A stretch of DNA of 64,000 bases from the NCBI GenBank assembly GCA_963844965.1, contig CAWJQC010000006.1, positions 32,001-96,000 on the forward strand, given 5' to 3'. The position numbers were made by a program, and so were the translations under genes. This DNA comes from an uncultured bacterium (GTDB lineage: Bacteria; Patescibacteriota; Minisyncoccia; UBA6257; 2-01-FULL-56-20). A model generated the notes under the pieces. That model was given only the letters and a program-made list of their open reading frames with translations, searched no databases and was not told where the DNA came from. Shown here piece by piece: positions 532 through 59,481 of the stretch (positions are counted from its first letter, which is position 1; the number at the start of each line of letters is the position of its first letter).

Positions 532-534
532 TGT

Positions 535-1110: not shown

Positions 1111-1299
1111 TCAAACCTCCGCGTCTATACGAGAGCGCAAAACGCACCGCAGCTACCGCTCGCGCAATAGATGCGGCTTCGGTTGAATCATAGCCAATCA
1201 GTAAAACTTTGATTTCAAAAGATGCCCCCGCATAGGCACGGCGGCTAAACAAAAAATGTAGCGCAAGATAAACGGTTCTCTGCGCACAAATCAATATTC

Positions 1300-27129: not shown

Positions 27130-27235
27130 TGTGCCGCGGGAGAGATTCGAACTCTCATAGTCTTACGACTGCTGGCTCATACTCGCCCCGTACCGAGCTT
27201 TGCTCCGGTGCGGGGAAGCCAGTGCGCCACGCACT
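27130..27235 (-). other. tRNA-like fragment (canonical T-arm GAGAG-TTCGAAT-CTCTC, no complete cloverleaf)
   Basis: The minus strand has a perfect T-arm followed by 'CCGCGGCA', but I could not find a matching 5' acceptor strand. Confidence 0.3.
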
Positions 27236-27245
27236 AAATTTTGCC

Positions 27246-27329
27246 GGTGCCGAGGGTGGGATTCGGACCCACAACCCTTTCGGGACAGCGTCCTAAGCGC
27301 TGCGCGTATTCCATTTCCGCCACCTCGGC
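27246..27329 (-). tRNA. tRNA-Leu (anticodon TAG), long variable arm
   Basis: Acceptor GCCGAGG/CCTCGGC. Anticodon stem CAGCG/CGCTG with loop CTTAGGA. Variable arm about 16 nt. T-arm GTGGG-TCCGAAT-CCCAC. Discriminator A followed by CC. Confidence 0.7.
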
Positions 27330-27639
27330 AAAATTTAGTGCGGTGTTCCGCCACCGCGACATTTGCGCGGGGATGAACCTGCCTACCAGCAAGCAGGCCC
27401 GCCAACCTGCCCGCACCGCTCCCATCACTGTTTATCTTAAATCCCGCCATCGTTTTATTCAACAACACGGCAGAATTCCGCAACGCCCATAAAAATGCCG
27501 GTGAGATAAAGCTCCATGGGCTTACCTGCGCTTCGCCGAGGCTGCGGCAAGGCGAGCGCCCGTGGTATCTGGAAGCTTTACCCCGCCCCGACCGCGGTCG
27601 GGGCGGGGTATTCAGCGGGGATTTAATATAAAAAACCAA

Positions 27640-28131: not shown

Positions 28132-28518
28132 CTAAGGACATAACGCTACCGCTGCCGAGTTCGCACCAAAGATATTAAGAACAATCAGCGGTACGGATTT
28201 CGCAAGCAATGCCACCACCAAGCCAACCACGGCGTAGGTAAGCATCTTCGTGGCTTCGCTTACTTTGGTCGGGTCGCCGGAAGAGGTCATATACTTATAC
28301 GCCGCGACAAGCACCAAAAGTATGACCAATGCCATGAGAATGTACCACATCCAGAAAGCAACCTCGCAAATCACATTGTCAATAAGCTGATCTGGAGTGC
28401 TATATGTCGGTACGGGAATTACCGATTGTGCGAAAACCTTATTCGCAGAAAGGAGCAGCAACTGGGATAGAAGCAGAACACCATACCGATATTTCACGGC
28501 TGAAAATAAATTTTTCAT
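28132..28518 (-). CDS. T4SS-pilin-like protein B (128 aa, signal peptide)
   Basis: 'LVAAYKYMTSSGDPTKVSEATKMLTYAVVGLVVALLAKSVPLIV' is paralogous to A. Confidence 0.65.
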   Translation of the reverse strand: MKNLFSAVKYRYGVLLLSQLLLLSANKVFAQSVIPVPTYSTPDQLIDNVICEVAFWMWYILMALVILLVLVAAYKYMTSSGDPTKVSEATKMLTYAVVGLVVALLAKSVPLIVLNIFGANSAAVALCP

Positions 28519-28644
28519 ACAATATTTTTTAACTTTATAACCGGCTGAAACGCTTATTTTCGGCCTTTTACGTTGTCTTTATCATACCACAAACTCCGAG
28601 AATTGCACTGGGGATAAAGGTGCTGCTTAACCTACCGCACCACC

Positions 28645-28992
28645 TCAACAGCCTCCACTGACGCTACTGGCACCGACTATACTGGCGACTATTGACGGGA
28701 CGGACTTCGCGAGAATTGCCACAATGATGCCTGCAGCGGCATAAGCAAGCGTCTTATGCGCCGAACTCACTCTTTCTGCGTTATCGCCGCCGGTAACATA
28801 GAGAAACCCGGCGTAAATTATCATAATCACGGAAAGCGCCATCAGAATGTAAAACATGGCAACGGCGATCGGGCAGAGAATTTTACTGGTAATATCCGAA
28901 ACGCCGCCGCTGAAAGTTATGCCGGAAACGTCGGCATAAGCGCCGCTTACGCCAAAAAGTTTCAGGAAACCGAGAATCAAAACCGGCGACAT
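28645..28992 (-). CDS. T4SS-pilin-like protein C (115 aa)
   Basis: 'YAGFLYVTGGDNAERVSSAHKTLAYAAAGIIVAILAKSVPSIV'. Confidence 0.65.
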   Translation of the reverse strand: MSPVLILGFLKLFGVSGAYADVSGITFSGGVSDITSKILCPIAVAMFYILMALSVIMIIYAGFLYVTGGDNAERVSSAHKTLAYAAAGIIVAILAKSVPSIVASIVGASSVSGGC

Positions 28993-29092
28993 TATGGTCC
29001 TCGTTTTCGGCGAGTTTCACAATGTAATTAACTATTTTCATAGTCCTTTCCTGCCTATTAATTTTAACACACCGGGCAAGTTATAAAACTAT

Positions 29093-30819
29093 TCACCCCC
29101 CGACCCCGAAAATCGCCTGGATAAGGCTGACCACGCCTTTCGCCGCGAGAACCGCCACAAAACCGATGGCCGCGTAAAGAATCGTGTTCCTGCCGTTCTT
29201 GAACTTTTCCGGATTGCCGCCGGCGGTTATTATCTGGAATCCGCCGTAAAGAACCATAATGGCGACTATGGGAACGGCTATCGTGATCAAAAGGTCAATG
29301 ATCTTATTGGCACAATCCGTGATGGTTGAGCACGCGCCCTGGAGAGGATTGGTAAGCGAGCCGCTGAGAGTCACGTTGCTGCCGGGTGATTGACCACTTG
29401 GCGACTGACCGCTGGGTGATTGACCGCTTGGCGACTGACCGCTGGGTGATTGACCGCCAGGCGTGCTCGCAGTCCATTGGCAAGCACCATTACCACCGAA
29501 AGCGCCAACACACGCACTCTGGGTCGTATAAAGCGTGCAGTTGGCGGACTGACAGTTCGCGCCAGTAGTATCTTGGGTACAAGTACCTCCGCTACACGCA
29601 GCAGTGCATGAAGCGACAGTATAAGAACAGCCACCAGTGCTGCAGTAATATGGCGTCACGGCGCTACACGTGCCGCCGCTGGTGCCAGCAGGCGATGTTG
29701 TAACACATTCACCGGTAGTAGTATTGCAGTAGGGGGCGTTACTGTATGCAGCGGCGCACTGACTGTTGCTGCTACACCCAACGCATGCATTATTAACGCA
29801 GATGGGCTGGGTCTCGACCGTGCATTTGGTGCTATCAGTGCCACAGCCGCTCGGCGCGGTCGTAACACATTCACCGGTAGTAGTATCGCAGTAGGGAGCA
29901 TTACTATATGCAGCGGCGCACTGACTATTACTGCTACATGCAGAGCATATATTATTGACGCAGATAGGTGCCGTCTCGCTCGTACAAATACACTACTATC
30001 ACCACTGCAACTGGTCGGCGAGGTTGTGACACATTCACCGGTATTAGTATTGCAGTAAGGAGCATTACTATATGCAGCGGCGCACTGACTATTACTGCTA
30101 CACCCAACGCACGTGCCACTAGAGCCACAGATGGGCTGGGTCTCGCTCGTGCATTGACTGCTATCGGTGCAGCTACCGCCGCCGCTGCATTGATTGGTGC
30201 TCGGCAAGCCGGGCGCCAGACAGCCCGAAGAACCATACCAGCCGCATCCCGCACTACAGCAGGTAGGTTGATCAATGCAATTACTGCAACTGGATAAGTT
30301 ACACGAACTGCCGCCGGTGCTCGCATTGCATACTTGCCCGCCGGCGCAACCACTATCGGAGCTGCAGGAGTTGCCAACGCCGCTACTATTGGCGTTATTT
30401 GACAGACAACTGCCAATCTGGGGGGATGCCACCGCGCAAGTGCAACCGACCCCAGTATAACAATTTCCCGCCGGCGAAGCGGAAGCGCAACTGCAAGTAA
30501 CCCCATCAGAATTAGTATTGCATACCTGGCCACCAGCGCAGCCGGAGTCGGTCGTGCAGTTTCCGCCGCCGTTGGATGGGTTGCAAGACACGGAACAATT
30601 ACTATCGGAGTAAGCGTTGGTTCCACAGCCTGCTGGATCTAAACAATTACCGGCCAGACAGTCATCGTTCGTCATGCAACTCGAACCGCAGGCTTCATAG
30701 AACGTACTGGGACAGGCCTGCGCGTGACTTACAGATGGTCGGCCAAAACCGAAAATAAAAGCGGCGATGACCACAAAAGCGAAAATCAGAAGCCGCTTCT
30801 TCATAATTTTATTATACAT
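29093..30819 (-). CDS. Cysteine-rich tandem-repeat secreted protein fused to a C-terminal T4SS-pilin-like domain (frame breaks inside the repeats)
   Basis: The N-terminal ORF (29656..30819) has a signal peptide and repeated 'S/TDSGCAGGQVCN' Cys modules, then runs out of frame through three ~130 bp DNA repeats. ORF 29093..29659 overlaps it by ATGA. It contains (GQSPS)x5 and ends 'LYGGFQIITAGGNPEKFKNGRNTILYAAIGFVAVLAAKGVVSLI'. Confidence 0.6.
29390..29462. repeat. 15-nt tandem repeat x5 encoding (GQSPS)n
   Basis: ccgctgggtgattga / ccgcttggcgactga units. Confidence 0.75.
29686..30110. repeat. Three tandem ~130 bp repeats inside the Cys-rich gene
   Basis: '...cattcaccggtagtagtattgcagtagggngcnttactntatgcagcggcgcactgact(a/g)tt(a/g)ctgctaca...' recurs three times with indels. 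Confidence 0.7.
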
Positions 30820-30828
30820 TATTTGGCG

Positions 30829-31347
30829 CTATTCGGGCAGAAACTTAGACCATAGTCCTTGCCAGACAGAGCTTTCGTTAACGAAAGCTGGCACCGTCAG
30901 GGCGACTTTCAATAGGCAGGCCTGCGGCTGCGTAATACCCAGGGCGCTGAGAAAATCAGATTCCGCCCGACTGCGCACTTCGTTGAAAGGATTGTTAAGT
31001 ATAGTGATGAGGAAGCTGCTGTCAGCAGGAAAGTAAAGAATGTGGTAATCTCCGGTGCTTCTGAACAAAACATAATCACCCGCTTCTACTCTCACGGCAT
31101 TTTTATAGGGATTTTTTACTTCCACGCTGCCGTTGGGCGTACCGATGGTAATCGTATCTCCCTCGGGGACGGGGATTGGCGGCGGAGGAGGCGTTGGTGA
31201 CGTGGGCGGGGAAATCGGCGGCAAGCCGCCGGGACCGGTACTTCCGGCAGGAGAGGTCTTGTTCCTGACAACCAAAACGACAACTACTCCGACGACTAGC
31301 ACAAGAAAAATTACCGCTATAATAATTATTCTTCTCGTTTTTAACAT
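30829..31347 (-). CDS. Membrane-anchored protein with a Pro-rich linker (172 aa)
   Basis: N-terminal TM helix 'IIIIAVIFLVLVVGVVVVLVV', then 'PISPPTSPTPPPPPIPVPEG'. Confidence 0.5.
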   Translation of the reverse strand: MLKTRRIIIIAVIFLVLVVGVVVVLVVRNKTSPAGSTGPGGLPPISPPTSPTPPPPPIPVPEGDTITIGTPNGSVEVKNPYKNAVRVEAGDYVLFRSTGDYHILYFPADSSFLITILNNPFNEVRSRAESDFLSALGITQPQACLLKVALTVPAFVNESSVWQGLWSKFLPE

Positions 31348-32366
31348 GATAACTTATGAGGACTTGGCGGGGTGAAATTGCATGTGCAGTTCACACTCCA
31401 GTTATCCCATGCCCGGGAATTGGCGGCAAGGGGACAAGCAGCGTTAATATTCGGGCTCGATTTTGTGGCGTCGGTGACACACTTTTTATACAGTGATGTA
31501 TTTACAACCTGACAATGGTAAACATGGTTTGTGCTGTCCCACTGAGCTGCGTGGTTAAAGGCGCTGGGACAGCCATCGCCGTTCACGTCATTTACGGTCA
31601 GGTTGATTTGGAACAGTCCCCACGAGAAAACACTGTTATCTTCCGCGCACTTATCCGACGTGCTCGGCGCCGTAGGATCGCCGCCACTTTCCTTGCTGGC
31701 AATGGAGGAAGCGTCATACGGACCATTACCGATACCGCCGAAACACGAACTGTTGAGGTTGTCTTGTGAAGCATCGCCGCTTGTAAGTGGCGCGCAATTT
31801 CCACTTGAATTGTTGCACGGACTGCCCGGATCGCAACTGCCCGGATAGCAATTTGAGGTTCCTCCGGCATTACTTTGACAATCTGCCTGGCTTGAGTAAT
31901 TAGCTACACACATATTTCCGGCGGCTGATACCTGACACAGTTGGTAAGATGTAGAGCCTCCGCTCGCCGTCGGCGCCGCCACCTGTACCGAAACACCAGG
32001 GAGCAGTAAATTCCAATTTGTCAGATTAGGATTGATGATGTTTAAAATCGTATAAGCTCCGACAAGGAGCAGGAGTCCGACTAATGCACCTTTCACCCAC
32101 TCTTTTCCTTCTGTTTGGCCAGTGGGGTTTCCGGCTGCCAGCGTGTATTTTATCCCGCCATAGACGATAGCTCCGAACGCCAGAATGCCGGCAAGCATCA
32201 TGGCAAATCTATAAAGATAGTCAACGAAGTTCCCCAGGCCGGAGCTGCCAGAAGGTTGACCGGGCAGATTTGTGTAGATAGTGACCTGCGCCCGCGCCAC
32301 CGCGGCGTAAAATAAACAGAAGGAAGCAAAGACCAGTGGACGTAATTTTTTAAACAAGGTTTTCAT
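31341..32366 (-). CDS. T4SS-pilin-like N-terminal domain fused to a Cys-rich lytic-transglycosylase-like (VirB1/SLT-like) domain (341 aa)
   Basis: Pilin-like 'FGAIVYGGIKYTLAAGNPTGQTEGKEWVKGALVGLLLLVGAY'. The C-terminal 'SKESGGDP...SVFSWGLFQIN' matches the SLT catalytic E-S ... GLxQ(I) pattern, with many Cys. Confidence 0.55.
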   Translation of the reverse strand: MKTLFKKLRPLVFASFCLFYAAVARAQVTIYTNLPGQPSGSSGLGNFVDYLYRFAMMLAGILAFGAIVYGGIKYTLAAGNPTGQTEGKEWVKGALVGLLLLVGAYTILNIINPNLTNWNLLLPGVSVQVAAPTASGGSTSYQLCQVSAAGNMCVANYSSQADCQSNAGGTSNCYPGSCDPGSPCNNSSGNCAPLTSGDASQDNLNSSCFGGIGNGPYDASSIASKESGGDPTAPSTSDKCAEDNSVFSWGLFQINLTVNDVNGDGCPSAFNHAAQWDSTNHVYHCQVVNTSLYKKCVTDATKSSPNINAACPLAANSRAWDNWSVNCTCNFTPPSPHKLSC

Positions 32367-32842
32367 TATCCCGAAACAGTGCAGTTAAACGGACCGCCGA
32401 ACCCCTGGATGAAACTTGAAAGGCTGAAAAAGTCCACGAACAATTTCACGATGACAAAGGCGAATATGACTATAAGCAAGCCGATTAAAGCGCCGGTCAG
32501 AATTTTTTTCGCGTTCTCGCGTCGAGCCGGACTGCCGCCGGAGGTAAGATACGTGATGCCGCCCCAAGCAAAGAGAATCGGCGTGAAAACGAAAAGTACG
32601 AGCGTTATGCCGAAATAAATTATGTTCACCATGGTCTGGATAATGTCGCAGACGCTCGTGCAGTATTTTTTCGCGGCTGCCTGTCCGCTGTAAATGCCCG
32701 TGCAGGACACAAGCCCGCCGGTGCCCCAATAACCACCGGGAAATATAGATGGCGTCTGAAGCACGTCGGCGGAAGCCACCAGCGGCGCGGCGAGAACGAT
32801 GACAAAAAACGAAACACAAGAGATTAGTAATAGTCTGCGCAT
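32366..32842 (-). CDS. T4SS-pilin-like protein F (158 aa)
   Basis: 'FTPILFAWGGITYLTSGGSPARRENAKKILTGALIGLLIVIFAFVIV'. Confidence 0.6.
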   Translation of the reverse strand: MRRLLLISCVSFFVIVLAAPLVASADVLQTPSIFPGGYWGTGGLVSCTGIYSGQAAAKKYCTSVCDIIQTMVNIIYFGITLVLFVFTPILFAWGGITYLTSGGSPARRENAKKILTGALIGLLIVIFAFVIVKLFVDFFSLSSFIQGFGGPFNCTVSG

Positions 32843-40261: not shown

Positions 40262-40370
40262 TTTGTTCGGTCGGGCTGCCCGGATTCGAACTGGGACTAA
40301 ATTTTACCCCGTAGCATCCGGCTTTAGTCGGATTGCTTCGGGGCCTCCCACCCCGCACTAAAAATTTACA
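40262..40370. other. tRNA-like or tmRNA-like fragment carrying hairpin element copy 1 (40307..40343)
   Basis: 'GGGCTGCCCGGATTCGAACTGGG' resembles a tmRNA 5' 'GGGGCUG..GGAUUCGAC' motif. It equally resembles the reverse complement of a T-arm plus 3' acceptor. No complete cloverleaf is found on either strand. It is followed by 'ccccgtagcatccggctttagtcggattgcttcgggg'. Confidence 0.3.
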
Positions 40371-40371
40371 T

Positions 40372-40442
40372 TCGGACTGCTGGGAGTCGAACCCAGGCCG
40401 CGTGCTCCCAAAGCACGTATACTACCGCTATACGACAGTCCG
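40372..40442 (-). tRNA. tRNA-Pro (TGG)
   Basis: Acceptor CGGACTG/CAGTCCG. Anticodon stem CGTGC/GCACG with loop TTTGGGA (U33, G37). T-arm CTGGG-TTCGACT-CCCAG. Confidence 0.8.
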
Positions 40443-40628
40443 ATAAATTTTAATCGCTTAGCTCATAAAATCGGTTCATTCGGAGAAAATGAAAACCGAA
40501 TTTTCATTTTCTCCTCACTGCCAATTTTAGTATGGGGCAAGAAGGACTCGTGCTAGCCGTTACACTACAGCCCGTCTCGCGCCCCTTTAACTTATTCGAT
40601 TTTTGATTTAAAATCAATGCGAGCTTCT

Positions 40629-40656
40629 GCCCCTATAGCTCAATATGGATAGACCT
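40629..40656 (+). other. Partial degenerate copy of the tRNA-Arg 5' half
   Basis: 'gcccctatagctcaatatggatagacc' compared with the tRNA-Arg 5' half 'gccctcgtagttcaatggatagaactcc'. Confidence 0.45.
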
Positions 40657-40702
40657 ATCTGCCGGCAGGCGGGGTAGCGCTCTTCCCAGCCCACCATAAT
40701 TT

Positions 40703-40774
40703 GCCCTCGTAGTTCAATGGATAGAACTCCGGACTTCTAAGCCGGATATGGGGGTTCGATTCCTCCCGAGGGCG
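40703..40774 (+). tRNA. tRNA-Arg (TCT)
   Basis: Acceptor GCCCTCG/CGAGGGC. D-stem GTTC/GAAC. Anticodon loop CTTCTAA. T-arm GGGGG-TTCGATT-CCTCC. Confidence 0.75.
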
Positions 40775-40809
40775 CGAAAACAGATATCGACTTTTTCGCA
40801 AAATTAGGT

Positions 40810-41601: not shown

Positions 41602-41750
41602 AATATATAATGCGAATAGGGCGCGGAAAGCGCGCTTAGGGCCGACGCCCCGACTAAAACAGCGCGGGGGTCGGCCTCCCGACGCCGACCAATGTCGGGC
41701 GTCGGGACTCAATGGCGGGGCGACTCGTTTATTCACCCCGTTAGATTTAT

Positions 41751-41821
41751 GGGCACTTAGCTCAGTGGCAGAGCGACTCGCTTACACCGAGTAGGTCGGA
41801 GGTTCAATCCCTCCAGTGCCC
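41751..41821 (+). tRNA. tRNA-Val (TAC)
   Basis: GGGCACT acceptor. Anticodon stem ACTCG/CGAGT with loop CTTACAC. T-arm GGAGG-TTCAATC-CCTCC. Confidence 0.85.
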
Positions 41822-41872
41822 ACTAAAAAATCTAATGGGGCAAGCCGAGAAGGCTGCAGGTCCGATTCCTGC

Positions 41873-41976
41873 GTCGCCCACAGTGGCAGAGCGACCGCCT
41901 TACACGCGGTAGGTCGTAGGCTCGCCCCGTAGCAAACCGAAGGTTTTGCTTCGGGGTTCAATCCCTACAGCGCGCA
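41873..41976 (+). other. 5'-truncated tRNA-Val(TAC)-like pseudo-copy with a 36-nt hairpin insertion (41921..41956) between the T-stem and T-loop
   Basis: 'CAGTGGCAGAGCGACCGCCTTACACGCGGTAGGTCGTAGG[ctcgccccgtagcaaaccgaaggttttgcttcgggg]TTCAATCCCTACAGCGCGCA'. No matching 5' acceptor or D-stem is present. Confidence 0.55.
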
Positions 41977-42025
41977 CAAAAACAAAAACGTCCAACTGGG
42001 CCGTTTTTATTTTTGTGCGCTTCAG
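41977..42025 (+). terminator. Long inverted-repeat terminator
   Basis: gcgcacaaaaacaaaaacg...cgtttttatttttgtgcgc. Confidence 0.6.
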
Positions 42026-46470: not shown

Positions 46471-46787
46471 GGGGATGATCGGCTTCGATAAGGATAAGTC
46501 CTGAACTGGCAAGCCAAGAGCTAACTTGTAAATCTGGCAAAAAATCAATAACTGCCAACTCAAAAGTTGCAGCTCCAGCATTCGCTTACGCGTAACGTTG
46601 GACATCGGCTGATCCGGGCTTCTTGGGTTAATACCGGTGTTATATAAGGAAGCTCGTTCCGAGTTGACGATTCTACGCTCGGCACTAAACACAGAATCAT
46701 TTCTGTCTAGTTTAACTGGACTACGCTTGTAGAAGGTTTAAGCGATTTTATCCTTACACGGCGGTTCAATTCCGCCCATCTCCACTA
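46471..46787 (+). ncRNA. ssrA: tmRNA (ssrA), tag ORF 46554..46592 (ANSKVAAPAFAYA*)
   Basis: 5' 'GGGGATGATCGGCTTCGATAAGG' matches the tmRNA consensus GGGGxxG....GGxUUCGA. The 3' T-arm is GGCGG-TTCAATT-CCGCC. The 3' strand CATCTCC pairs with GGGGATG, including a G3-U70 pair. The internal frame starts at a GCC resume codon and ends at TAA. Confidence 0.8.
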
Positions 46788-46960
46788 AAACAAAAATACT
46801 CGCTCCTTGTGAGCGGGTGTTTTTGTTTCTTGTAAAATGGTCTGGCGGAATTGAACGAGGGGTGGGCCGGAGGGGAAACTCGGTGTCCCCTCCGTGTAGG
46901 AAATTACTCAAAACCGAGGGTTGTGAGAGAGCGAGTTGCTGTATAGCGACTCGCGACGTG

Positions 46961-46980
46961 AAATTCCGCCCATCTCCACA
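46961..46980 (+). repeat. Direct repeat of the tmRNA 3' end, about 180 bp downstream of ssrA
   Basis: 'aattccgcccatctccac' is identical to tmRNA positions 46767-46784. Confidence 0.7.
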
Positions 46981-47186
46981 TAACCAGAATTGAACTTTAG
47001 AAAACCCTCCAGAAGGGTTGAAAAATCTAGCCCGACCCTGATTTTTTCTTGGTTTTCCATTTTGCGTTTTTGAAACAGTATCACGCGAGGGAGTGAATAT
47101 AAAAAAAACCGACACCTATTAGTGCCGGTTGTAAAGGATAGGTTTCTTTAGACAGTGATTCGACGGCTTTTTGCCGTTTTTTTTCG

Positions 47187-47969
47187 TTAAGCCGCAATCT
47201 TCTCGGCAAACACGGACGGCGGCATCTTGAGGGCGGAGTGGATCCGCGTGTGGTTGTACTGCCACAAGGTGCTGTAGATCTCCGCCACGAGCTCGCCGAA
47301 GGTCCCGAACCGGTTGGGATCACCGAGGTCAATCTTGAACTTGTCATAGAACGATTCCTGGTAGCCGTTTTCCCATGGGGCACCGGGCCGCGACCGCGAG
47401 ATCGTGATGCCACAGTCCCCCAGTGTATCGGTGAACGCTCGTGCCTTGTACTCGCTGCCGTTGTCCGAATGGAAGATGACCGGATGCGGATGGTGGAAAA
47501 GCGCGTTGGCCAGGGTCTGTATCGTGAGGGGCGATCCTTTCCGCAACGCCACATGGACGCCCATCAATCGTCTCGTGAAAAGATCGAGTATCGTGGACAC
47601 GTACACTTTCTTGCCGCGATACAGGAACTCCGTGAAATCGGTTGCCCAGACGTGGTTCGCGTACGAGGGCATGATGGCAAGTAAGAGGTTCGGAAAGGCC
47701 CGCGATGCCTTTGATTTCCGGTATTTCCTGCCTCGCCTCCGGTACGGCCTTATGCCGAAGATTCGCATGACGCGCTGCGCTCGCGGACGGCTCACGCCCA
47801 GAGCTTGTCCCAAGCGCCGGGAACCGTATGCCGGATGGCGCTGCAATTCTTCTTCCATGCGGATCTTGAGCGCCCAATCTTTCTTGTCCTGCCGTGATAC
47901 GTAGTAGAGCGATGCCCGCGAGACGCCCATGGCCCGCGCCATGGCGGACTTGTTCCGCTTTTCCGTCAA
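47187..47969 (-). CDS. IS3 transposase OrfB (rve integrase core, DDE)
   Basis: 'HSDNGSEY' integrase-core motif. It has a TTG start and is normally made as an OrfAB fusion. Confidence 0.8.
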   Translation of the reverse strand: MTEKRNKSAMARAMGVSRASLYYVSRQDKKDWALKIRMEEELQRHPAYGSRRLGQALGVSRPRAQRVMRIFGIRPYRRRGRKYRKSKASRAFPNLLLAIMPSYANHVWATDFTEFLYRGKKVYVSTILDLFTRRLMGVHVALRKGSPLTIQTLANALFHHPHPVIFHSDNGSEYKARAFTDTLGDCGITISRSRPGAPWENGYQESFYDKFKIDLGDPNRFGTFGELVAEIYSTLWQYNHTRIHSALKMPPSVFAEKIAA

Positions 47970-48229
47970 TTCTTTTTTTGGGCCTGGGAGAGCTTCACGG
48001 TGAGCTCGCCCACCACTTCAAACAGCTCCCTGTTCTGCTTCTGGAGACGGCTGAACTCGCCCCAGGAAGGGACGCCCGATGCTCCTGCGCCTAGCCAATT
48101 GTAGATGGTGGACTCGTGCAAACCGTGGTCCTTCGCAGCCTGCGCTACGGGGACTCCTTCTTCCTTCACCCGGCGGAGGATGTCCGCCTTCACTTCCTTC
48201 GCAATCCGATGCCCTTTTTTGTTGCTCAT
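47966..48229 (-). CDS. IS3 transposase OrfA (HTH)
   Basis: 'GVPVAQAAKDHGLHESTIYNW' HTH. It ends '...AQKKN*' across the A7G site. Confidence 0.75.
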   Translation of the reverse strand: MSNKKGHRIAKEVKADILRRVKEEGVPVAQAAKDHGLHESTIYNWLGAGASGVPSWGEFSRLQKQNRELFEVVGELTVKLSQAQKKN

Positions 48230-48257
48230 GACACAATGGTAGTTTGTTTCGACCTTT

Positions 48258-48467
48258 GTGTCTAAATTATCCTATCCGGGTCAAAGCTTCAAGATTCGCC
48301 CACCGGTCTTTATACCAATTTATAATAACAGCAATAAATTACACAAACAGTTATCAGAACTCTCCAAGGAGGCTCATAAAAACTATTCCAATGAAAAAGT
48401 TATTGCCGAAATCGACCAAGAGATAAACGAAGTTTACTTGAAAGTTTGCCAGCAAGAAAATAAATAG
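48258..48467 (+). CDS. Small AT-rich hypothetical ORF (69 aa) upstream of the recombinase
   Basis: ORF only. It partly overlaps the IS right end. Confidence 0.25.
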   Translation: MSKLSYPGQSFKIRPPVFIPIYNNSNKLHKQLSELSKEAHKNYSNEKVIAEIDQEINEVYLKVCQQENK

Positions 48468-48529
48468 CAATGAAAATACTCTTATAACTCTTCGAAGAAA
48501 TGATGGGGATACTTAATTTAAACTAAGCC

Positions 48530-50041
48530 ATGAAAGCAATAATCTTATCTCGCGTATCAACGAAAGAGCAGGCCGATGAGGGGCAATCCATACCAGCGCA
48601 AACGGGACGGCTCACTGAATACGTTAATAAAAAACAACTTGATCATTGGAAGGTTTTTGAGATCGCCGAAAGTTCTACGCACGATACAAGGAAAAAGTTT
48701 GATAAGGTTTTGGAGCTTATTAAGAAATCGCACGAGCCGCTTGCGCTTGTGGTTGAAACCGTTGACCGGCTGCAGCGGAGCTTTAAGGAAAGCGTTATTT
48801 TGGACGATCTGCGCAAAGAAGGCAAAGTTGAAATCCACTTTGTCCGCGAGGGCTTGATATTAACGAAGGATTCGAACAGCGCCCAGCTTTTACAATGGGA
48901 TATGGGCGTGATGTTTGCCCGCAGCTACGTTTTGCAATTAAGCGATAACGTGAAGCGCAGCAATGAGCAGAAACTGAAGAACGGCGAATGGATAAGCAAA
49001 GCGCCGATAGGTTATCGAAATATCAGGGATGAAAACGACAAGCCGGATATAGAAGTTGACCCCGAAGCATCGCCTTTTATCGTCAAGGTTTTCGAGCGCT
49101 ACGCCACTGGCAATTACTCGATGATTACGTTGGCCAAACAGATGCGCGAAGAAGGTTTTACCGGAAAACAACACGGCAATCCGATCACCGTTAGCCAGAT
49201 AGAGCGCATACTTAAAAATTCTTTTTACTACGGCGTTATGGAGGTTCACGGCAAACAATATCAGCACCGCTACCCACCGCTTATCTCAATGCACCTGTTT
49301 TTGAAATGCCGCAAGGTTATAGAAAGTTGGAATAAAAAACCGTTTCAACACGCCGCGAGGCCATTTATCTTTCGAGGTATCCTATCGTGTGCAACCTGCG
49401 GTTGCGCCATTACCGCAGAAATGGCAAAGGGCAAGTATATTTATTATCATTGCACGAATTTCAGGGGTATATGCGAGAAGGTATACGTGCCCGAAAAAGA
49501 CCTTTTAAAGCCCATAAAACGCTATCTGCGCAAGTTTGTGCTGCCGCAGGAAGGAATTGACTACGTTGTCGGTAAACTACGCACAACGACAGAAATCGAG
49601 CAGGAATACCACAATCAGGCGATGGCTACCCTAAAAGCCGAATATGACCGCTACGAGGCCAGAATCAGCAAAATGACCGATGACAAATACGACGGCAGTA
49701 TTACGCCCGAAATCTACGACAAAAAATTGAAAGAGTATAAGGCAAAGCAGGCCGACTTATTGAATCAGATGCAGGATCACAGCAAAGCCGACGAGCAGCA
49801 TCACCTTACGGCTACGAAATTACTTGATGTTTGCAAACGCGCCGATTCAATCTTCGAAAGTTCTGAACCGGCTGAAAAACGGCAATTTTTGAATTTCGTA
49901 TTTCAGAACTCGACGCTAAACCGAAATAAGCCAATGTTTATGCTGAAACCCGTGTTTGCGGGCATAGTAAAAGCGCACGAAACTCATAAATGGGGTGCCT
50001 ATCGGGATTCGAACCCGAGCCGAGAGTGCCACAGACTCTAG
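48530..50041 (+). CDS. Large serine recombinase (resolvase N-domain, recombinase domain, zinc ribbon)
   Basis: 'AIILSRVSTKEQ' catalytic Ser region and a Cys cluster 'CATCGCAITAE...YYHC'. The last ~17 codons run antisense through tRNA-His. Confidence 0.85.
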   Translation: MKAIILSRVSTKEQADEGQSIPAQTGRLTEYVNKKQLDHWKVFEIAESSTHDTRKKFDKVLELIKKSHEPLALVVETVDRLQRSFKESVILDDLRKEGKVEIHFVREGLILTKDSNSAQLLQWDMGVMFARSYVLQLSDNVKRSNEQKLKNGEWISKAPIGYRNIRDENDKPDIEVDPEASPFIVKVFERYATGNYSMITLAKQMREEGFTGKQHGNPITVSQIERILKNSFYYGVMEVHGKQYQHRYPPLISMHLFLKCRKVIESWNKKPFQHAARPFIFRGILSCATCGCAITAEMAKGKYIYYHCTNFRGICEKVYVPEKDLLKPIKRYLRKFVLPQEGIDYVVGKLRTTTEIEQEYHNQAMATLKAEYDRYEARISKMTDDKYDGSITPEIYDKKLKEYKAKQADLLNQMQDHSKADEQHHLTATKLLDVCKRADSIFESSEPAEKRQFLNFVFQNSTLNRNKPMFMLKPVFAGIVKAHETHKWGAYRDSNPSRECHRL

Positions 50042-50064
50042 TGCTGCCGTTACACCATAGGCAC
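49990..50064 (-). tRNA. tRNA-His (GTG) with encoded G-1 and CCA
   Basis: 8-bp acceptor GGTGCCTA/TAGGCACC. Anticodon stem AGAGT/ACTCT with loop CTGTGGC. T-arm CTCGG-GTTCGAAT-CCCGA. Confidence 0.8.
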
Positions 50065-57533: not shown

Positions 57534-57608
57534 TGGTGCGCGCGCCTGGATTCGAACCAGGAACCTGCCGTGTATAAGACGGATGCTCTGCCGTTGAGCT
57601 ACGCGCGC
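57534..57608 (-). tRNA. tRNA-Ile (TAT anticodon), CCA encoded
   Basis: Acceptor GCGCGCG/CGCGCGC. D-stem GCTC/GAGC. Anticodon stem TCCGT/ACGGC (27:43 U.C) with loop CTTATAC. T-arm CCTGG-TTCGAAT-CCAGG. Confidence 0.6.
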
Positions 57609-57835
57609 TTCCTTTCCCCTATTCCCATTTTACAAAATAGACTCTGGTTTTGTAAGTCCTACGCGCCGCTTTTTGTTTTTAGGAAGCTGTCGGAGGCGAC
57701 GCAAGCTTGGTTCCGCTGAAAGCGGATTGCGCCGCCGACCTGCCTGCCAGGCAGGGATGCAGAGCCGATTCGCCGCTGGAGCGAATCGAGCTCGATTCTC
57801 AAAAACAAAAACCGGCGCGGTTACAAAACGAGGGT

Positions 57836-58423: not shown

Positions 58424-58758
58424 CTGAAAAATGTTTCCGTTTAATTCCTTTTAGCAGATTCCGCGGAAAAAATCAATAACCGCCACTTGAGAATATACGC
58501 CTTGGAATGTAAAATGAAGTTGGTCGGAACTGCGAACTGGCGCGATTATTACATAACTAATACGACAGAAAACATCCGTTCGGTTCGGCTCGCGGCAATT
58601 AACATTTAACGCACAAGCGGGCCCCGCACCGAGCCGGGCACTTCGTTTTCTACAACGTCGGTGGTAAGATATTGTAACCACACCAAATTCAAAACTTGGC
58701 ATCGGCAGTTTTTTTCAGGAAAATGTAAAAGTGTTGCGGTGCCCGATCTGGTGACGGG

Positions 58759-58797
58759 GCGGGTGTAGCACGGCGGTTAGTGCGGACCTTCCAAGCC
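58759..58797 (+). other. tRNA 5'-half-like fragment (acceptor GCGGGTG + D-arm) upstream of tRNA-Gly
   Basis: 'GCGGGTG TA GCAC GGCGGTTA GTGC G GACCTTCCAAG' has a perfect D-stem and a CTTCCAA-like anticodon remnant. Confidence 0.45.
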
Positions 58798-58829
58798 CCG
58801 CACCAAAGAAGGACTTGGTGAGTCATCTT

Positions 58830-58900
58830 GCGGGCGTAGTATAGCGGCAATACGTCACCCTTCCAAGGTGAAGTCGTGGGTTCAACTCCCATCGCCCGCT
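58830..58900 (+). tRNA. tRNA-Gly (TCC)
   Basis: Acceptor GCGGGCG/CGCCCGC. Anticodon stem TCACC/GGTGA with loop CTTCCAA. T-arm GTGGG-TTCAACT-CCCAT. Confidence 0.85.
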
Positions 58901-58944
58901 CACAAAACGCAAGCAGTCCTTCTTATGGTGACAGGGCAAGCAAC

Positions 58945-58977
58945 ATACGGCGGTTCGACTCCGCTCACCCGCTCAGA
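58945..58977 (+). other. tRNA 3'-half-like fragment (T-arm + acceptor CACCCGC) downstream of tRNA-Gly
   Basis: 'AC GGCGG TTCGACT CCGCT CACCCGC TCA'. Its acceptor strand is exactly complementary to GCGGGTG in the upstream fragment. Confidence 0.45.
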
Positions 58978-59010
58978 AGAAGGGGGTTGGGGGATAATTA
59001 CCACGCAAAC

Positions 59011-59481
59011 ATGATTAGGTGCACATTTGAAAACGGCAGTGAGGCCTTCATGCGGCACACCGTAGTAGACACCATCGTGCTTAAGGACGGCAAGGTCCTT
59101 TTGGTCAAGAGAGCAAAAAAATTTCTTGAGGGCGGCAAATGGGCGCTTGTCGGAGGATTTATGGAAAAGAACTAAACTATCAAGGAGGCGGTGGCGCGGG
59201 AGGTCCTTGAAGAGACGGGGTATGAGGTGGGCGGCATTACCCTGTTCCGCATAATCGATAATCCCAATCATCCGGGCGAGGACAGGCAAAATGTTTGTTT
59301 TGTCCACTACTGCAACGCCCTCAAAAAAACCGGCGCGCCGGATTTGGAAAATGATGAACAACGGTGGTTTTCTTTTTCAGAACTGCCGCCCAAAGACGAA
59401 ATGGCCTTTGATCACCTGGAAGATATTTGCCTCTATCGGGAGTACACCGAGAAACCCCTCATTTTACCGAGAATCGGATAA
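59011..59481 (+). pseudogene. NUDIX hydrolase with an in-frame TAA at the conserved Nudix-box Glu codon
   Basis: 'GGFMEKN*TIKEAVAREVLEETGY' spans ORFs 58876..59175 and 59191..59481 in the same frame. The TAA (59173-59175) sits where GX5EX7REUXEEXGU expects GAA. Confidence 0.6.

What the first reader, a model, noticed from the sequence alone, without database searches (positions are those of the whole stretch)
58759..58977. Intact tRNA-Gly nested between the two halves of a second tRNA-like gene
Upstream of tRNA-Gly(TCC) is a 5' half with a perfect acceptor and D-arm (GCGGGTG..GCAC-GGCGGTTA-GTGC..TTCCAAG). Downstream is a 3' half with a canonical T-arm and CACCCGC. The two acceptor strands are perfectly complementary to each other, not to the intact gene. 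Both halves end or start in CAAG microhomology. Either a tRNA-Gly gene of about 145 bp with its flanks was inserted into another tRNA-Gly gene, or this is a split tRNA with a giant intervening sequence.
Basis: seen in the sequence. Interest (0 to 1): 0.6.

Follow-up and report, generated by a model that had tools for sequence, protein, structure and literature searches.

The report
tRNA gene inserted inside older tRNA
A working glycine tRNA gene sits inside the anticodon loop of an older, now broken glycine tRNA gene, and the same "new tRNA inside old tRNA of the same kind" pattern recurs for several other tRNAs in this tiny-genome (CPR/Parcubacteria) bacterium and its relatives, which points to an undescribed way of overwriting tRNA genes in place.

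Summary
Window 58759-58796 and 58937-58973 are the two parts of a second tRNA-Gly(UCC) gene. A profile built from other genomes' tRNA-Gly genes aligns them to positions 1-40 (E 3.7e-4) and 36-72 (E 5.3e-6). Their acceptor strands pair 7/7. Rejoined, they are 90% identical to an uninterrupted Candidatus Yanofskybacteria gene. Between them lie 140-145 bp: a complete tRNA-Gly(UCC) (Rfam 67.8 bits) with about 35 nt arms on each side that pair with each other. CAAGC (positions 36-40) is present at both junctions.

The locus is identical in an independent assembly. It is conserved, with divergence, in a relative whose FtsH is 89% identical. In this window the outer gene is dead: the 5' strand of its anticodon stem is lost, A14 is G, and ARAGORN rejects the precise rejoin. 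So this is a DNA insertion into a tRNA gene, not a spliced split tRNA.

It is not a one-off. Pro, Val and Leu in the window, and reciprocal tRNA-Ile(UAU) nests in relatives, show the same pattern, usually at position 35/36. Close relatives carry five different tRNA-Gly(UCC) sequences at this one site. The insert ends match a small hairpin repeat found only inside tRNA relics. The insertion mechanism is unresolved. I found no prior description in the literature I could search.

The parts
58487..58515 (+). Promoter-like site (TTGAGA-17-TAAAAT), followed by a leader (58516-58615) that is conserved in relatives. In those relatives the leader runs directly into the tRNA-Gly gene.
   Evidence: Promoter scan. 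Homologous 'GGAATGTAAAATG...AATTAACATTTAA..CACA' leader directly upstream of tRNA-Gly in L024 and L027.
58616..58628 (+). Stump of a still older tRNA-Gly gene: GCGGG C CCCGC, the two acceptor strands with nothing between them. It lies exactly where the tRNA starts in relatives.
   Evidence: Covariance model local hit joining model positions 1-5 and 68-72. Position relative to the conserved leader.
58696..58724 (+). Second promoter-like copy (TTGGCA-17-GAAAAT; GGAAAATGTAAAAGTGTTGCGG). It resembles the promoter and leader start of L024 and L011 and probably arrived together with the outer gene.
58759..58796 (+). Outer tRNA-Gly(UCC) 5' part, tRNA positions 1-40. Acceptor strand, D-arm and anticodon loop CTTCCAA are intact. 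The anticodon-stem 5' strand is reduced to GAC, and position 14 is G instead of A.
   Evidence: Sequence. nhmmer E 3.7e-4, profile 1-40. Covariance model 8.6 bits. Comparison with L003 and L011.
58792..58796 (+). CAAGC, first copy (tRNA positions 36-40), duplicated at the other junction.
   Evidence: profile positions 36-40 are covered by both halves.
58797..58829 (+). Left arm of the insert: CCCGCACCAAAGAAGGACTTGGTGAGTCATCTT. It serves as the 5' leader of the inner tRNA. Its 3' part is homologous to the native leader of the un-nested inner-type gene in L019. Its start, CCCCGCACC, matches the small hairpin repeat family.
58806..58815 (+). Inverted-repeat core AAGAAGGACT. It pairs with 58915-58924 (AGTCCTTCTT), 10/10.
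   Evidence: the repeat finder I5. The minimum-free-energy fold puts the arms in one long helix with the inner tRNA at its tip.
58830..58901 (+). Inner, intact tRNA-Gly(UCC); presumably the functional gene.
   Evidence: ARAGORN. Rfam RF00005, 67.8 bits. 72/72 identical in L011 and L015, and one difference in L019 and L027.
58902..58936 (+). Right arm of the insert: ACAAAACGCAAGCAGTCCTTCTTATGGTGACAGGG. It serves as the 3' trailer of the inner tRNA. Its end, GGTGACAGGG, matches the 3' end of the small hairpin repeat family and the 12 nt just upstream of the outer gene (58749-58760).
   Evidence: (D4).
58937..58973 (+). Outer tRNA-Gly(UCC) 3' part, tRNA positions 36-73. It begins with the second CAAGC and continues with the anticodon-stem 3' strand GCAAC, variable loop ATAC, T-arm GGCGG-TTCGACT-CCGCT, acceptor strand CACCCGC and discriminator T.
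   Evidence: nhmmer E 5.3e-6. Covariance model 14.8 bits, E 4e-4. 38/39 identical to L011.

Best explanation
This is a tRNA gene replaced in place, at the DNA level.

The older gene was an ordinary tRNA-Gly(UCC), here called T1, the type found intact in Candidatus Yanofskybacteria. A 140-145 bp piece of DNA was inserted into its anticodon loop, somewhere between positions 35/36 and 40/41. CAAGC is now present on both sides of the insert. The piece carries a complete tRNA-Gly(UCC) of a different sequence type (T2) with about 35 nt of leader and trailer that pair with each other.

The inner gene now does the decoding. It is probably transcribed from the upstream promoter-like sites through the dead 5' half, then released by RNase P and the 3' processing enzymes. 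That step is inferred. The outer halves are a decaying relic: in this genome the anticodon stem can no longer form.

The event belongs to a recurrent process in this Parcubacteria (Paceibacteria-like) lineage. tRNA genes are repeatedly overwritten by a gene with the same anticodon landing in a loop of the resident gene. The landing site is most often position 35/36 and sometimes the D-loop. Only inserts that bring a working copy of the same tRNA can survive, because they destroy the resident copy.

The enzyme or repair route that makes the insertion is not established. My leading guess is a hairpin-bounded cassette related to the small CCCC...GGGG repeats that sit only in tRNA relics, possibly moved by a single-strand (HUH/Y1, IS200/IS605-type) transposase such as the one encoded at 555-992. 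Capture of DNA from a relative's allelic locus during break repair or transformation is about equally plausible.
For: Shown by tool results:
1. The halves are a real tRNA-Gly gene split at the anticodon loop. Rejoined, they are 90% identical to the intact L003 gene but only 68% identical to the inner gene.
2. The locus is not an assembly artefact. An independent Logan assembly (L026) is identical across the upstream spacer, the nest and the first 160 bp or so of the Nudix gene. L011, from a JGI metagenome with FtsH 89% identical, has the same nest with the same junctions but diverged arms.
3. The outer gene is decaying. In the window the precise rejoin is not called a tRNA. In L011 it carries a 33-nt insertion in the D-loop. 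In L015 only a 5' half of yet another type is left.
4. Between the window and L011, the inner gene shows 0/72 differences against 10/76 in the arms (Fisher p 0.0015). The inner gene is therefore the constrained one.
5. The same syntenic site, next to the 195-aa gene, holds five different tRNA-Gly(UCC) sequences that are 64-86% identical to each other. The genomes carrying four of them have FtsH at least 81% identical to the window's; the fifth came in through a 195-aa protein about 84% identical.
6. The pattern recurs. In the window: tRNA-Pro(UGG) (halves with 7/7 complementary acceptor strands; profile E 2.9e-6 and 0.058), tRNA-Val(UAC) and tRNA-Leu (17-nt perfect inverted repeat around the inner gene). 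In relatives: reciprocal tRNA-Ile(UAU) nests in L011, L012 and L015 with precise junctions CTTA|...|TAA.
7. The left arm is homologous to the native leader of the un-nested T2 gene in L019. The right arm shares only a short CAAGCAG motif with the L027 trailer.
8. The insert ends, CCCCGCACC...GGTGAC(A/G)GGG, match a hairpin repeat of about 30-37 nt. All three window copies of that repeat lie inside tRNA relics.
9. An IS200/IS605 TnpA gene is in the window.
Against: - No transcript data: neither the expression of the inner gene nor the fate of the outer halves was observed.
- The acceptor, variable-loop and T-arm parts of the outer gene are better conserved between the window and L011 (1/52 differences) than the arms (10/76; p 0.028). 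A purely neutral relic would not show this.
- Outer genes in relatives (L011 Gly, L011 Ile-A, L012 and L015 Ile-B) become callable tRNAs once the insertions are removed. In those genomes function after some unknown excision cannot be excluded.
- The mechanism is weakly supported. The flanks of the small repeats show no common target sequence. The Gly junction has a 5-nt duplication while the Ile junctions have none. The IS200-like element shares only a 9-mer with the repeats.
- The 35/36 assignment for Gly is ambiguous within 35/36-40/41 because of the duplication.
- The insert ends also resemble the outer gene's own leader and trailer (D2 and D4). I cannot explain that.
Confidence: 0.74

Rival explanations
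1. Split or intron-containing tRNA. The outer halves are exons, and the 145-nt segment including the inner tRNA is an intervening sequence removed from the RNA, so both tRNAs are made from one transcript.
For: - The arms and halves fold into one long helix with the inner tRNA at the tip (z = -2.3).
- Outer acceptor, variable-loop and T-arm parts are conserved between the window and L011 (1/52 differences against 10/76 in the arms).
- Outer genes in L011, L012 and L015 are restorable tRNAs with complementary stems.
- Position 35/36 is a known site of group I introns in Patescibacteria tRNAs (PMC13011429).
Against: - In the window the outer anticodon stem cannot form, and ARAGORN rejects the precise rejoin.
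- There is no bulge-helix-bulge motif: both junctions lie directly opposite each other at the base of the arm helix.
- There is no group I or group II ribozyme hit, 145 nt is too short, and the 5' exon ends in C, not U.
- This is a bacterium (tmRNA and SmpB), and no splicing endonuclease was found among the window ORFs scanned.
- Every nest holds an intact inner gene with the same anticodon, which splicing would not require.
- Outer genes show a decay series.
Confidence: 0.06
2. Exapted processing scaffold. The outer gene is dead as a tRNA, but its paired acceptor and T-arm parts plus the arms are kept because the long helix helps maturation, stability or termination of the inner tRNA transcript.
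For: - The outer acceptor, variable-loop and T-arm parts are more conserved than the arms (p 0.028).
- The arm helix is conserved in L011 and somewhat better paired there (CCCC/GGGG).
- No promoter-like site lies in the left arm, so the 5' half must be transcribed as leader.
- Inner genes of the Leu, Val and Gly nests are all flanked by 10-17 nt inverted repeats.
Against: - Only one comparison pair and few sites were available.
- Relatives with un-nested T2 (L027, L019) do without the halves.
- L015 has lost the 3' half altogether.
- D-arm and anticodon-stem parts are wrecked differently in the window and in L011.
Confidence: 0.12
3. Footprint of classical integrase-mediated integration. A phage or island integrated into the tRNA-Gly gene by site-specific recombination and was later almost entirely deleted, leaving att-site duplicates and a passenger tRNA.
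For: - tRNA anticodon loops and T-loops are known crossover sites of integrases (established knowledge; tRNA gene fragments from integrating elements reviewed in PMC9897764).
- The 5-nt CAAGC present at both junctions would fit a crossover core.
- A large serine recombinase (48530-50041) and a DDE transposase lie next to tRNA-His and tmRNA in the window.
- Relatives L012 and L019 show the classical pattern of an intact tRNA followed about 190 bp later by a duplicated 3' end.
Against: - Classical integration restores the tRNA by fusing the resident 5' part to an element-borne 3' part and leaves only one fragment. Here both halves are displaced and nothing is fused.
- The Ile nests have no duplicated core at all.
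- No integrase lies in or beside the insert.
- The same compact size (tRNA plus 15-40 nt arms) in several independent nests argues against random deletion of large islands.
Confidence: 0.1
4. Artefact or chance. The nest is an assembly chimera of two strain alleles, or the halves are chance look-alikes.
For: The window comes from a metagenome-assembled genome, and strain variants of this locus coexist in related samples.
Against: - The locus is identical in an independent assembly (L026), and a diverged copy with the same junctions exists in L011.
- The two tRNA types share at most 9 identical bases, too few to mislead a k-mer assembler.
- Profile E-values are 3.7e-4 and 5.3e-6, and the split-tRNA scan gave 0 hits in shuffles.
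Confidence: 0.01

Closest known systems
tRNA gene fragments left by integrating mobile elements (attL/attR duplicates; van der Gulik et al. 2023, PMC9897764; sublocation preference of integrases for anticodon loop, T-loop and 3' end, from my own knowledge)
   Same: - Foreign DNA has landed inside a tRNA gene at a loop.
- Partial tRNA genes are left next to an intact one.
- tRNA function is preserved after the event.
   Different: - Function is preserved by carrying a whole replacement gene, not by rebuilding a chimeric gene from an element-borne 3' part.
- Both halves of the target are displaced.
- The insert is only 140-145 bp and has no integrase.
- The Ile junctions have no duplicated core.
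Group I introns at position 35/36 of tRNA genes in Patescibacteria (Nakagawa et al. 2026, PMC13011429)
   Same: Same phylum and the same unusual position in the anticodon loop (35/36) for most nests. Standard tRNA finders miss the interrupted gene.
   Different: - No ribozyme core (no RF00028 hit; 145 nt of which 72 are a tRNA).
- The 5' exon ends in C (Gly), A (Ile) or G (Pro), not U.
- The interrupted gene is decayed here.
- The insert carries a tRNA.
Archaeal disrupted tRNA genes: multiple-intron, split and permuted tRNAs processed at bulge-helix-bulge motifs (reviewed in PMC4390854, PMC4090602)
   Same: tRNA genes are interrupted in the anticodon loop, D-arm and T-arm by short, related, apparently mobile sequences. 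Several interruptions can occur in one gene (L012 outer tRNA-Ile has three).
   Different: - Bacterial host.
- No bulge-helix-bulge geometry, and no endonuclease found.
- The interrupted genes always accompany an intact gene with the same anticodon, and they show decay.
Hairpin-bounded non-autonomous elements moved by HUH/Y1 transposases (IS200/IS605 derivatives called PATEs; REP/REPIN elements with RAYT), and IStrons as an IS that neutralises its own insertion (from my own knowledge)
   Same: - Short GC-rich hairpin repeats, with short and long forms sharing the same ends.
- Insertions without target duplication (Ile nests).
- An IS200/IS605 TnpA gene in the same window.
- Like an IStron, the insert carries its own remedy for the damage it does.
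   Different: - No common target tetranucleotide next to the copies.
- Only a 9-mer is shared with the resident IS.
- A tRNA gene as cargo, with the cognate tRNA gene as target, has not been described for these families as far as I could find.

Membership tests
Split or intron-containing tRNA spliced by a protein endonuclease (archaeal type) | Exons join into a canonical cloverleaf | tested here: not met
   The precise rejoin of 58759-58791 with 58937-58976 is not called a tRNA by ARAGORN. The anticodon-stem 5' strand is GAC facing GCAAC.
Split or intron-containing tRNA spliced by a protein endonuclease (archaeal type) | Bulge-helix-bulge motif at both exon-intron junctions | tested here: not met
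   The fold and direct reading show both junctions opposite each other at the base of a continuous arm helix, next to an internal loop. There are no 3-nt bulges 4 bp apart.
Split or intron-containing tRNA spliced by a protein endonuclease (archaeal type) | Splicing endonuclease and ligase encoded by the organism | tested here: inconclusive
   No such domain was found in the 52 window ORFs scanned with Pfam. That covers only 64 kb of the genome. The organism is a bacterium (tmRNA, SmpB).
Group I intron in a tRNA gene | Group I catalytic core | tested here: not met
   No RF00028 hit at E up to 10 in 58500-59200, nor in the window or relatives. The insert is 145 nt, of which 72 are a tRNA.
Group I intron in a tRNA gene | U at the last position of the 5' exon and G at the last position of the intron | tested here: not met
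   The 5' exon would end in C35 (or C40). The last base of the insert is G. The criterion is taken from PMC13011429.
Integrase-mediated island in a tRNA gene | Direct repeat of a tRNA segment (att core) at both ends, with the tRNA restored by fusion | tested here: not met
   Only 5 nt (CAAGC) are repeated. No chimeric restored gene exists, and the intact gene lies wholly inside the insert.
Integrase-mediated island in a tRNA gene | Integrase gene within or beside the inserted DNA | tested here: not met
   The insert is 140-145 bp and non-coding. The neighbours are a 195-aa membrane protein and a Nudix gene. Recombinases exist elsewhere in the window, at 47187-50041.
MITE / PATE / REPIN-like hairpin element | Terminal or subterminal inverted repeats forming a hairpin | tested here: met
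   CCCCGCACCAAAGAAGGACT pairs with AGTCCTTCTTATGGTGACAGGG, with a 10/10 core. The same kind of flanking repeat occurs around the inner Leu (17/17), Val and Ile genes.
MITE / PATE / REPIN-like hairpin element | Multiple related copies in the genome | tested here: inconclusive
   Short forms with the same ends occur at 27186-27215, 40307-40343 and 41925-41956, and in L011 and L012. Similarity to the Gly arms is limited to about 9 nt at each end. No second copy of the long form is present in the window.
MITE / PATE / REPIN-like hairpin element | Cognate transposase acting on these ends | not testable with these tools
   An IS200/IS605 TnpA is encoded at 555-992 (PF01797 E 9e-39; NF033573 130.8 bits). 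Only the 9-mer CCCCGTAGC links it to the repeats.
Ordinary bacterial tRNA gene (inner gene) | Full cloverleaf scoring above the Rfam gathering threshold, with a conserved sequence in relatives | tested here: met
   67.8 bits against a threshold of 29. Identical in L011 and L015, and 99% identical in L019 and L027.

The most novel reading that the evidence does not exclude
These nests may be the work of a previously unrecognised kind of selfish or mobile unit: a compact hairpin-bounded cassette whose cargo is a tRNA gene. It inserts site-specifically into a loop of the resident tRNA gene with the same anticodon, usually between anticodon positions 35 and 36. That destroys the resident gene and makes the cell dependent on the incoming copy. 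tRNA alleles would then spread horizontally and replace one another, even reciprocally, as the A-in-B and B-in-A tRNA-Ile nests suggest. The short CCCC...GGGG and CCTGCC...GGCAGG hairpins in tRNA relics would be cargo-less members or footprints of the same system.
Probability: 0.3. Interest if true: 0.88.

Novelty: new variant of a known kind. Interest (0 to 1): 0.72.

Why it matters
tRNA genes are normally among the most stable and vertically inherited sequences in a genome. Here close relatives carry five different tRNA-Gly(UCC) sequences at one site, and the remains of earlier genes lie around the current one like layers.

If this is general in CPR bacteria, four things follow:
1. tRNA genes in these reduced genomes turn over horizontally and fast, perhaps under pressure from tRNA-targeting nucleases or from elements that integrate into tRNA genes.
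2. Insertion into an essential single-copy gene can be tolerated when the insert brings a replacement. That is a simple route to genetic addiction.
3. Standard annotation misses the relics, so the history goes unseen, and it may mis-call them as pseudo or split tRNAs.
4. The recurring 35/36 site, shared with Patescibacteria group I introns, hints at a common vulnerability or a common enzyme acting on the anticodon-loop DNA.

All of this is directly testable with tRNA-seq and long-read metagenomes.

Tried and rejected
- ARAGORN with intron options and lowered thresholds on 58600-59100 found only the inner gene.
- Brute-force joins are uninformative. ARAGORN accepts many joins because the acceptor, D-arm and T-arm are strong. 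The same problem made the Leu reconstruction useless.
- Rfam at E up to 10 reported no half-tRNA hits, because its models are not local, and no intron families.
- Single-sequence nhmmer with each window tRNA as query was too insensitive to find relics. Profiles built from other genomes worked.
- The viral contig scan for the inner tRNA found nothing.
- The metagenome scan returned only 3 loci, because exact matching is strict.
- Serine or tyrosine recombinase model: checked for a duplicated crossover core at the Ile junctions, and found none.
- IS200/IS605 target model: listed the 4 nt on each side of six repeat copies, and found no common target.
- Homology between the IS200-like element and the arms or repeats is limited to one 9-mer.
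- A tandem-duplication-plus-two-deletions origin was considered, because the insert ends resemble the outer gene's own trailer and leader (D2 and D4). I judged it less likely than a single insertion because of the clean Ile junctions, but it is not excluded.
- Literature searches for nested tRNA genes, tRNA introns in CPR, and IS200 with tRNA cargo found no description of this arrangement.
Full report
**1. The observation**

The sequence at 58759-58977 reads as follows:
- GCGGGTG TA GCAC GGCGGTTA GTGC G GAC CTTCCAA GC
- a 33-nt spacer
- a complete tRNA-Gly(UCC) at 58830-58901
- a 35-nt spacer
- CAA GCAAC ATAC GGCGG TTCGACT CCGCT CACCCGC T

ARAGORN and Rfam report only the inner gene (67.8 bits). 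ARAGORN's intron mode does not find the outer one.

To test the halves independently, I built a profile from 13 tRNA-Gly(UCC) genes of other genomes. It aligned 58759-58796 to positions 1-40 (E 3.7e-4) and 58937-58973 to positions 36-72 (E 5.3e-6), searching the whole window. A covariance model of 11 of those genes gave local hits to the D-arm plus anticodon 5' part (8.6 bits, E 0.019) and to the variable loop plus T-arm (14.8 bits, E 4e-4).

A purpose-written scan required paired acceptor strands, a D-arm and a T-arm up to 600 nt apart. It recovered the pair at 58759-58972 and found nothing in shuffled sequence.

This includes the microhomology, which is 5 nt long: CAAGC, tRNA positions 36-40, present at both junctions.

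**2. What the halves are**

A pattern scan of species-representative genomes returned nine CPR loci. One of them, from Candidatus Yanofskybacteria (L003), carries an uninterrupted tRNA-Gly(UCC):

GCGGGTGTAGCACAGCGGTTAGTGCGCTTGCCTTCCAAGCAAGATACGGCGGTTCGATTCCGCTCACCCGCT

The rejoined window halves are 90% identical to it and only 68% identical to the inner gene. So the outer gene (type T1) is a bona fide tRNA-Gly(UCC) that has been interrupted. The inner gene (type T2) is a different allele class, also seen in other Parcubacteria (L006, L007).

Compared with L003 the window's outer gene has two defects:
- G at the universally conserved position A14.
- The 5' strand of its anticodon stem is lost: GAC where GTTGC would be needed to pair with GCAAC.

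ARAGORN does not call the precisely rejoined sequence a tRNA.

**3. Relatives**

The window is a CPR bacterium. It has a tmRNA of 119.5 bits and SmpB, and its FtsH is closest to Liptonbacteria, Paceibacterota and Minisyncoccia entries. I fetched syntenic loci through FtsH homologues and through homologues of the adjacent 195-aa protein. The tRNA-Gly site next to the 195-aa gene looks like this:

| Locus | Similarity to the window | State of the tRNA-Gly site |
|---|---|---|
| L026 (independent Logan assembly) | 195-aa protein 99% | Identical to the window across the upstream spacer, the nest and the first 160 bp or so of the Nudix gene |
| L011 | FtsH 89% | Same nest, same junctions; inner gene 72/72 identical; arms 10/76 different; outer anticodon stem intact (GCTGC/GCAGC); extra 33-nt insertion in the outer D-loop |
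| L015 | not measured (locus from the metagenome scan) | 5' half of yet another type (GCGGGTATCGTATAATGGCATTACC TCGGC TTTC|), 40 nt, then T2; no 3' half |
| L019 | FtsH 82% | Un-nested T2; its leader is homologous to the window's left arm |
| L027, L028 | 195-aa protein 84% | Un-nested T2; the trailer shares only a short CAAGCAG motif with the window's right arm |
| L010 | FtsH 88% | Single gene, type T4 |
| L024 | 195-aa protein 83% | Single gene, type T4 |
| L012, L014, L018 | FtsH 82-83% | Single gene, type T3 |
| L020 | FtsH 81% | Single gene, type T5 |

The five types are 64-86% identical to each other. That is far more divergent than vertical descent of a tRNA would allow in genomes this close.

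The window also keeps older layers:
- The conserved promoter and leader, which in L024 and L027 run straight into the tRNA, end in the window at a stump, GCGGG-C-CCCGC (58616-58628).
- A second copy of the promoter and leader start follows at 58696-58752. Only then comes the T1 gene.

**4. Insertion, not splicing**

Arguments against an RNA-level intron in this window:
- The outer anticodon stem is broken.
- There is no bulge-helix-bulge motif. Both junctions sit opposite each other at the foot of the arm helix.
- There is no group I or group II hit. The 5' exon would end in C rather than U, the criterion given in PMC13011429.
- The organism is bacterial.
- No splicing endonuclease appears in the 52 ORFs scanned.

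Arguments for decay of outer genes in general. They form a series:
- Pristine: L011 outer tRNA-Ile.
- Interrupted again: L012 outer tRNA-Ile with three insertions; L011 outer Gly.
- Point-damaged: the window's outer Gly; L015 outer Ile with T54C.
- Half-deleted: L015 Gly; the outermost Ile 3' piece in L011.

The inner gene is the constrained one: 0/72 differences against 10/76 in the arms (p 0.0015).

One caveat. The outer acceptor, variable-loop and T-arm parts differ at only 1 of 52 sites between the window and L011, against 10/76 in the arms (p 0.028). This leaves room for a secondary role of the paired halves, for example in processing.

**5. The pattern recurs**

In the window:
- tRNA-Pro(UGG) (40371-40443, minus strand) lies between a 5' half at 40574-40538 and a 3' piece at about 40301-40270. 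Their acceptor strands, CGGGCTG and CAGCCCG, pair 7/7. A Pro profile gives E 0.058 for the 5' half and 2.9e-6 for the 3' piece.
- tRNA-Val(UAC) (41751-41823) lies between GCGCGCTTAG (41630) and the rest of a second tRNA-Val(UAC) (41880-41977). ARAGORN calls that second gene once the nest and a 36-nt insertion are removed.
- tRNA-Leu (27246-27329, minus strand) is flanked by a perfect 17-nt inverted repeat and by the two parts of a second type II tRNA.
- tRNA-Arg has a 5' half upstream.

In relatives, tRNA-Ile(UAU) of type A (GGGCCAG...) sits inside type B (GCGCCTG...) in L012 and L015. A fresh type B sits inside type A in L011, which also retains the old outer B 3' piece, making three layers. 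The junctions are exact, CTTA|...|TAA, and the arms are homologous: CCTGCCCGCC..ACAT and CA..GGCAGGCGGG.

The break is at 35/36 in Ile (both directions), Pro, L015 Gly, and, within the ambiguity of the duplication, the window's Gly. It is in the D-arm or D-loop for Val, Leu and L029 Gly.

In every complete nest where the outer anticodon loop can still be read (Gly, the Ile nests and Val), inner and outer genes carry the same anticodon. For Pro the outer retains only the first anticodon bases (TG), and for Leu the outer anticodon cannot be read.

**6. The ends of the inserts**

The Gly insert begins CCCCGCACC and ends GGTGAC(A/G)GGG. The same ends bound a hairpin repeat of about 30-37 nt, for example CCCCGCACCGGAGCAAAGCTCGGTACGGGG.

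Its three window copies all lie inside tRNA relics: Leu 27186-27215, Pro 40307-40343 and Val 41925-41956. Further copies sit in the T-loop of the outer Ile of L012 and in the D-loop of the outer Gly of L011.

Likewise, the Ile arms share their ends with short palindromes such as CCTGCCTGCCGGCAGGCAGG. These occur in the L012 D-arm, at window 57739-57755, and in the window's Arg relic.

So there are long forms with a tRNA inside and short forms without one.

The window encodes an IS200/IS605 Y1 transposase at 555-992 (PF01797 E 9e-39; NF033573 130.8 bits) with TTTA-loop hairpins at both ends of the gene. This enzyme class moves hairpin-ended single-stranded DNA without target duplication. The link to the nests is only circumstantial: one shared 9-mer and no common target sequence.

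The homology of the Gly left arm to the native leader of the un-nested T2 gene, and the duplicated promoter, also fit another route: capture of DNA from a relative's allelic locus by illegitimate recombination.

**7. Unexplained**

- Why 35/36?
- Why does the Gly insert's left end also resemble the outer gene's own 3' end plus trailer (CCCGCACCAAAGAAGG against CCCGCTCAGAAGAAGG), and its right end the outer gene's own leader (TGGTGACAGGGC against TGGTGACGGGGC)?
- Why are the short hairpins confined to tRNA relics?
- Why do the outer B alleles of L012 and L015 differ strongly in their 3' halves while the arms and the inner gene are nearly identical?

**8. Comparison with known systems, and novelty**

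The arrangement works like a tRNA-targeted insertion that preserves function. That is a known theme for integrating elements. But it fails the defining features of integrase islands, of group I introns and of archaeal disrupted tRNAs (see the membership tests).

Seven full-text searches and four papers read gave no description of a tRNA gene nested in a tRNA gene with the same anticodon in bacteria. The library lacks most subscription journals, so absence is not proof.

I rate it a new variant of a known kind. There is a substantial chance, about 0.3, that a dedicated and undescribed mobile cassette underlies it.

**9. Verdict**

- The insertion reading is supported, and the split-tRNA reading is not supported for this genome.
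- Confidence is about 0.74 that the outer gene is a relic and the inner gene is the working tRNA.
- The insertion mechanism is open.

Noticed in passing
window 40270-40574 (minus strand): tRNA-Pro(UGG) at 40371-40443 is nested between the two parts of a second tRNA-Pro. The 5' half is at 40574-40538 and ends ...CTTG|, i.e. at position 35/36. The 3' piece is at about 40301-40270. The acceptor strands CGGGCTG and CAGCCCG pair 7/7. The right-hand spacer holds a copy of the small hairpin repeat (40307-40343).
   Followed up: partly
window 41630-41977 (+): tRNA-Val(UAC) at 41751-41823 lies between GCGCGCTTAG (41630-41640, followed by GC-rich hairpins) and the rest of a second tRNA-Val(UAC) (41880-41977). 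That second gene has a 36-nt insertion between T-stem and T-loop. Here the split is in the D-arm. The inner gene is flanked by CCCCGTTAGATTT / AAATCTAATGGGG. A T-arm-like relic sits at 41852-41880.
   Followed up: partly
window 27130-27360 (minus strand): tRNA-Leu(UAG) at 27246-27329 is flanked by a perfect 17-nt inverted repeat (27230-27246 / 27326-27342). Outside that lie GTCGCGGTGGCGGAA (27360-27346) and a 3' piece with a long variable arm, T-arm and CCGCGGC (27229-27133). That 3' piece contains the hairpin repeat at 27186-27215. The outer anticodon could not be reconstructed.
   Followed up: partly
window 40630-40702 (+): A 5' half of another tRNA, GCCCCTATAGCTCAATATGGATAGA[CCTATCTGCCGGCAGGCGGGGTA]GC..., lies just upstream of tRNA-Arg(UCU) (40703-40775). 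It has a palindromic insertion at the same D-stem position as in the outer tRNA-Ile of L012. No 3' half was seen downstream.
   Followed up: no
L011 2830-3170, L012 3225-3530 and L015 6680-6900: Reciprocal nests of two tRNA-Ile(UAU) types: type A inside B in L012 and L015, and type B inside A inside an old B remnant in L011. Junctions are exact at 35/36 and the arms are homologous. The outer B of L012 carries two more insertions, one in the D-arm and one in the T-loop.
   Followed up: partly
window 57534-57608 and relatives: The lineage uses tRNA-Ile with anticodon UAU, which is uncommon in bacteria. They normally read AUA with a lysidine-modified CAU tRNA. At least four sequence types occur at the syntenic site beside FtsH.
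   Followed up: no
window 59011-59481 (+), stop at 59173-59175: The Nudix hydrolase gene just downstream has an in-frame TAA exactly at the conserved Glu of the Nudix box (GGFMEKN*TIKEAVAREVLEETGY). The same TAA is present in the independent assembly L026. It is either a pseudogene or a read-through or recoding site.
   Followed up: partly
window 500-1200 (minus strand): IS200/IS605-family Y1 transposase gene (555-992), with hairpins CCGCGGGC-TTTA-GCCCGCGG downstream and CCCCGGCC-TTTA-GGCCGAGG upstream. The upstream region contains CCCCGTAGC, the first 9 bases of the small hairpin repeats. An RNaseH-like (PF04308) gene follows at 28-531.
   Followed up: partly
window 46471-50064: Between the tmRNA (46471-46787) and tRNA-His (49991-50064, minus strand) lie an rve-type DDE transposase (47187-47969) and a large serine recombinase (48530-50041). 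The recombinase reading frame runs about 50 nt into tRNA-His on the opposite strand. This looks like an integrated element bounded by two RNA genes.
   Followed up: no
L012 4279-4475; L019 6810-7010; L003 1443-1640; L005; L009 3486-3640: Several tRNA-Gly genes are followed about 150-190 bp later by a duplicate of their last 15-24 nt, which is the classical att-like pattern. The stretch right after the gene (CCAAGATTTGAC..GGGCGGCA..TGCCGCCCA) is similar in Yanofskybacteria and Saccharibacteria, and the first dozen bases also in the Paceibacteria-like L019. This suggests a small element shared across CPR classes. It has no Rfam match.
   Followed up: partly
window 58616-58760: Between the conserved leader and the outer tRNA-Gly lie an acceptor-only stump (GCGGGCCCCGC), a partial copy of the hairpin repeat start (CCCCGCACCGAGCC) and a second copy of the promoter and leader start. 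These are signs of at least one earlier replacement at this site.
   Followed up: partly
L029 1-60 (minus strand reading): Another relative has a tRNA-Gly 5' start, GCGGGTATCGTATAAC, interrupted in the D-loop by the hairpin CCCTCCCAAAATTTT..AAAATTTTGGAGGG. The contig ends inside it.
   Followed up: no
window 28132-32842 (minus strand): A cluster of four genes with type IV secretion pilin domains (PF18895), next to unannotated genes.
   Followed up: no
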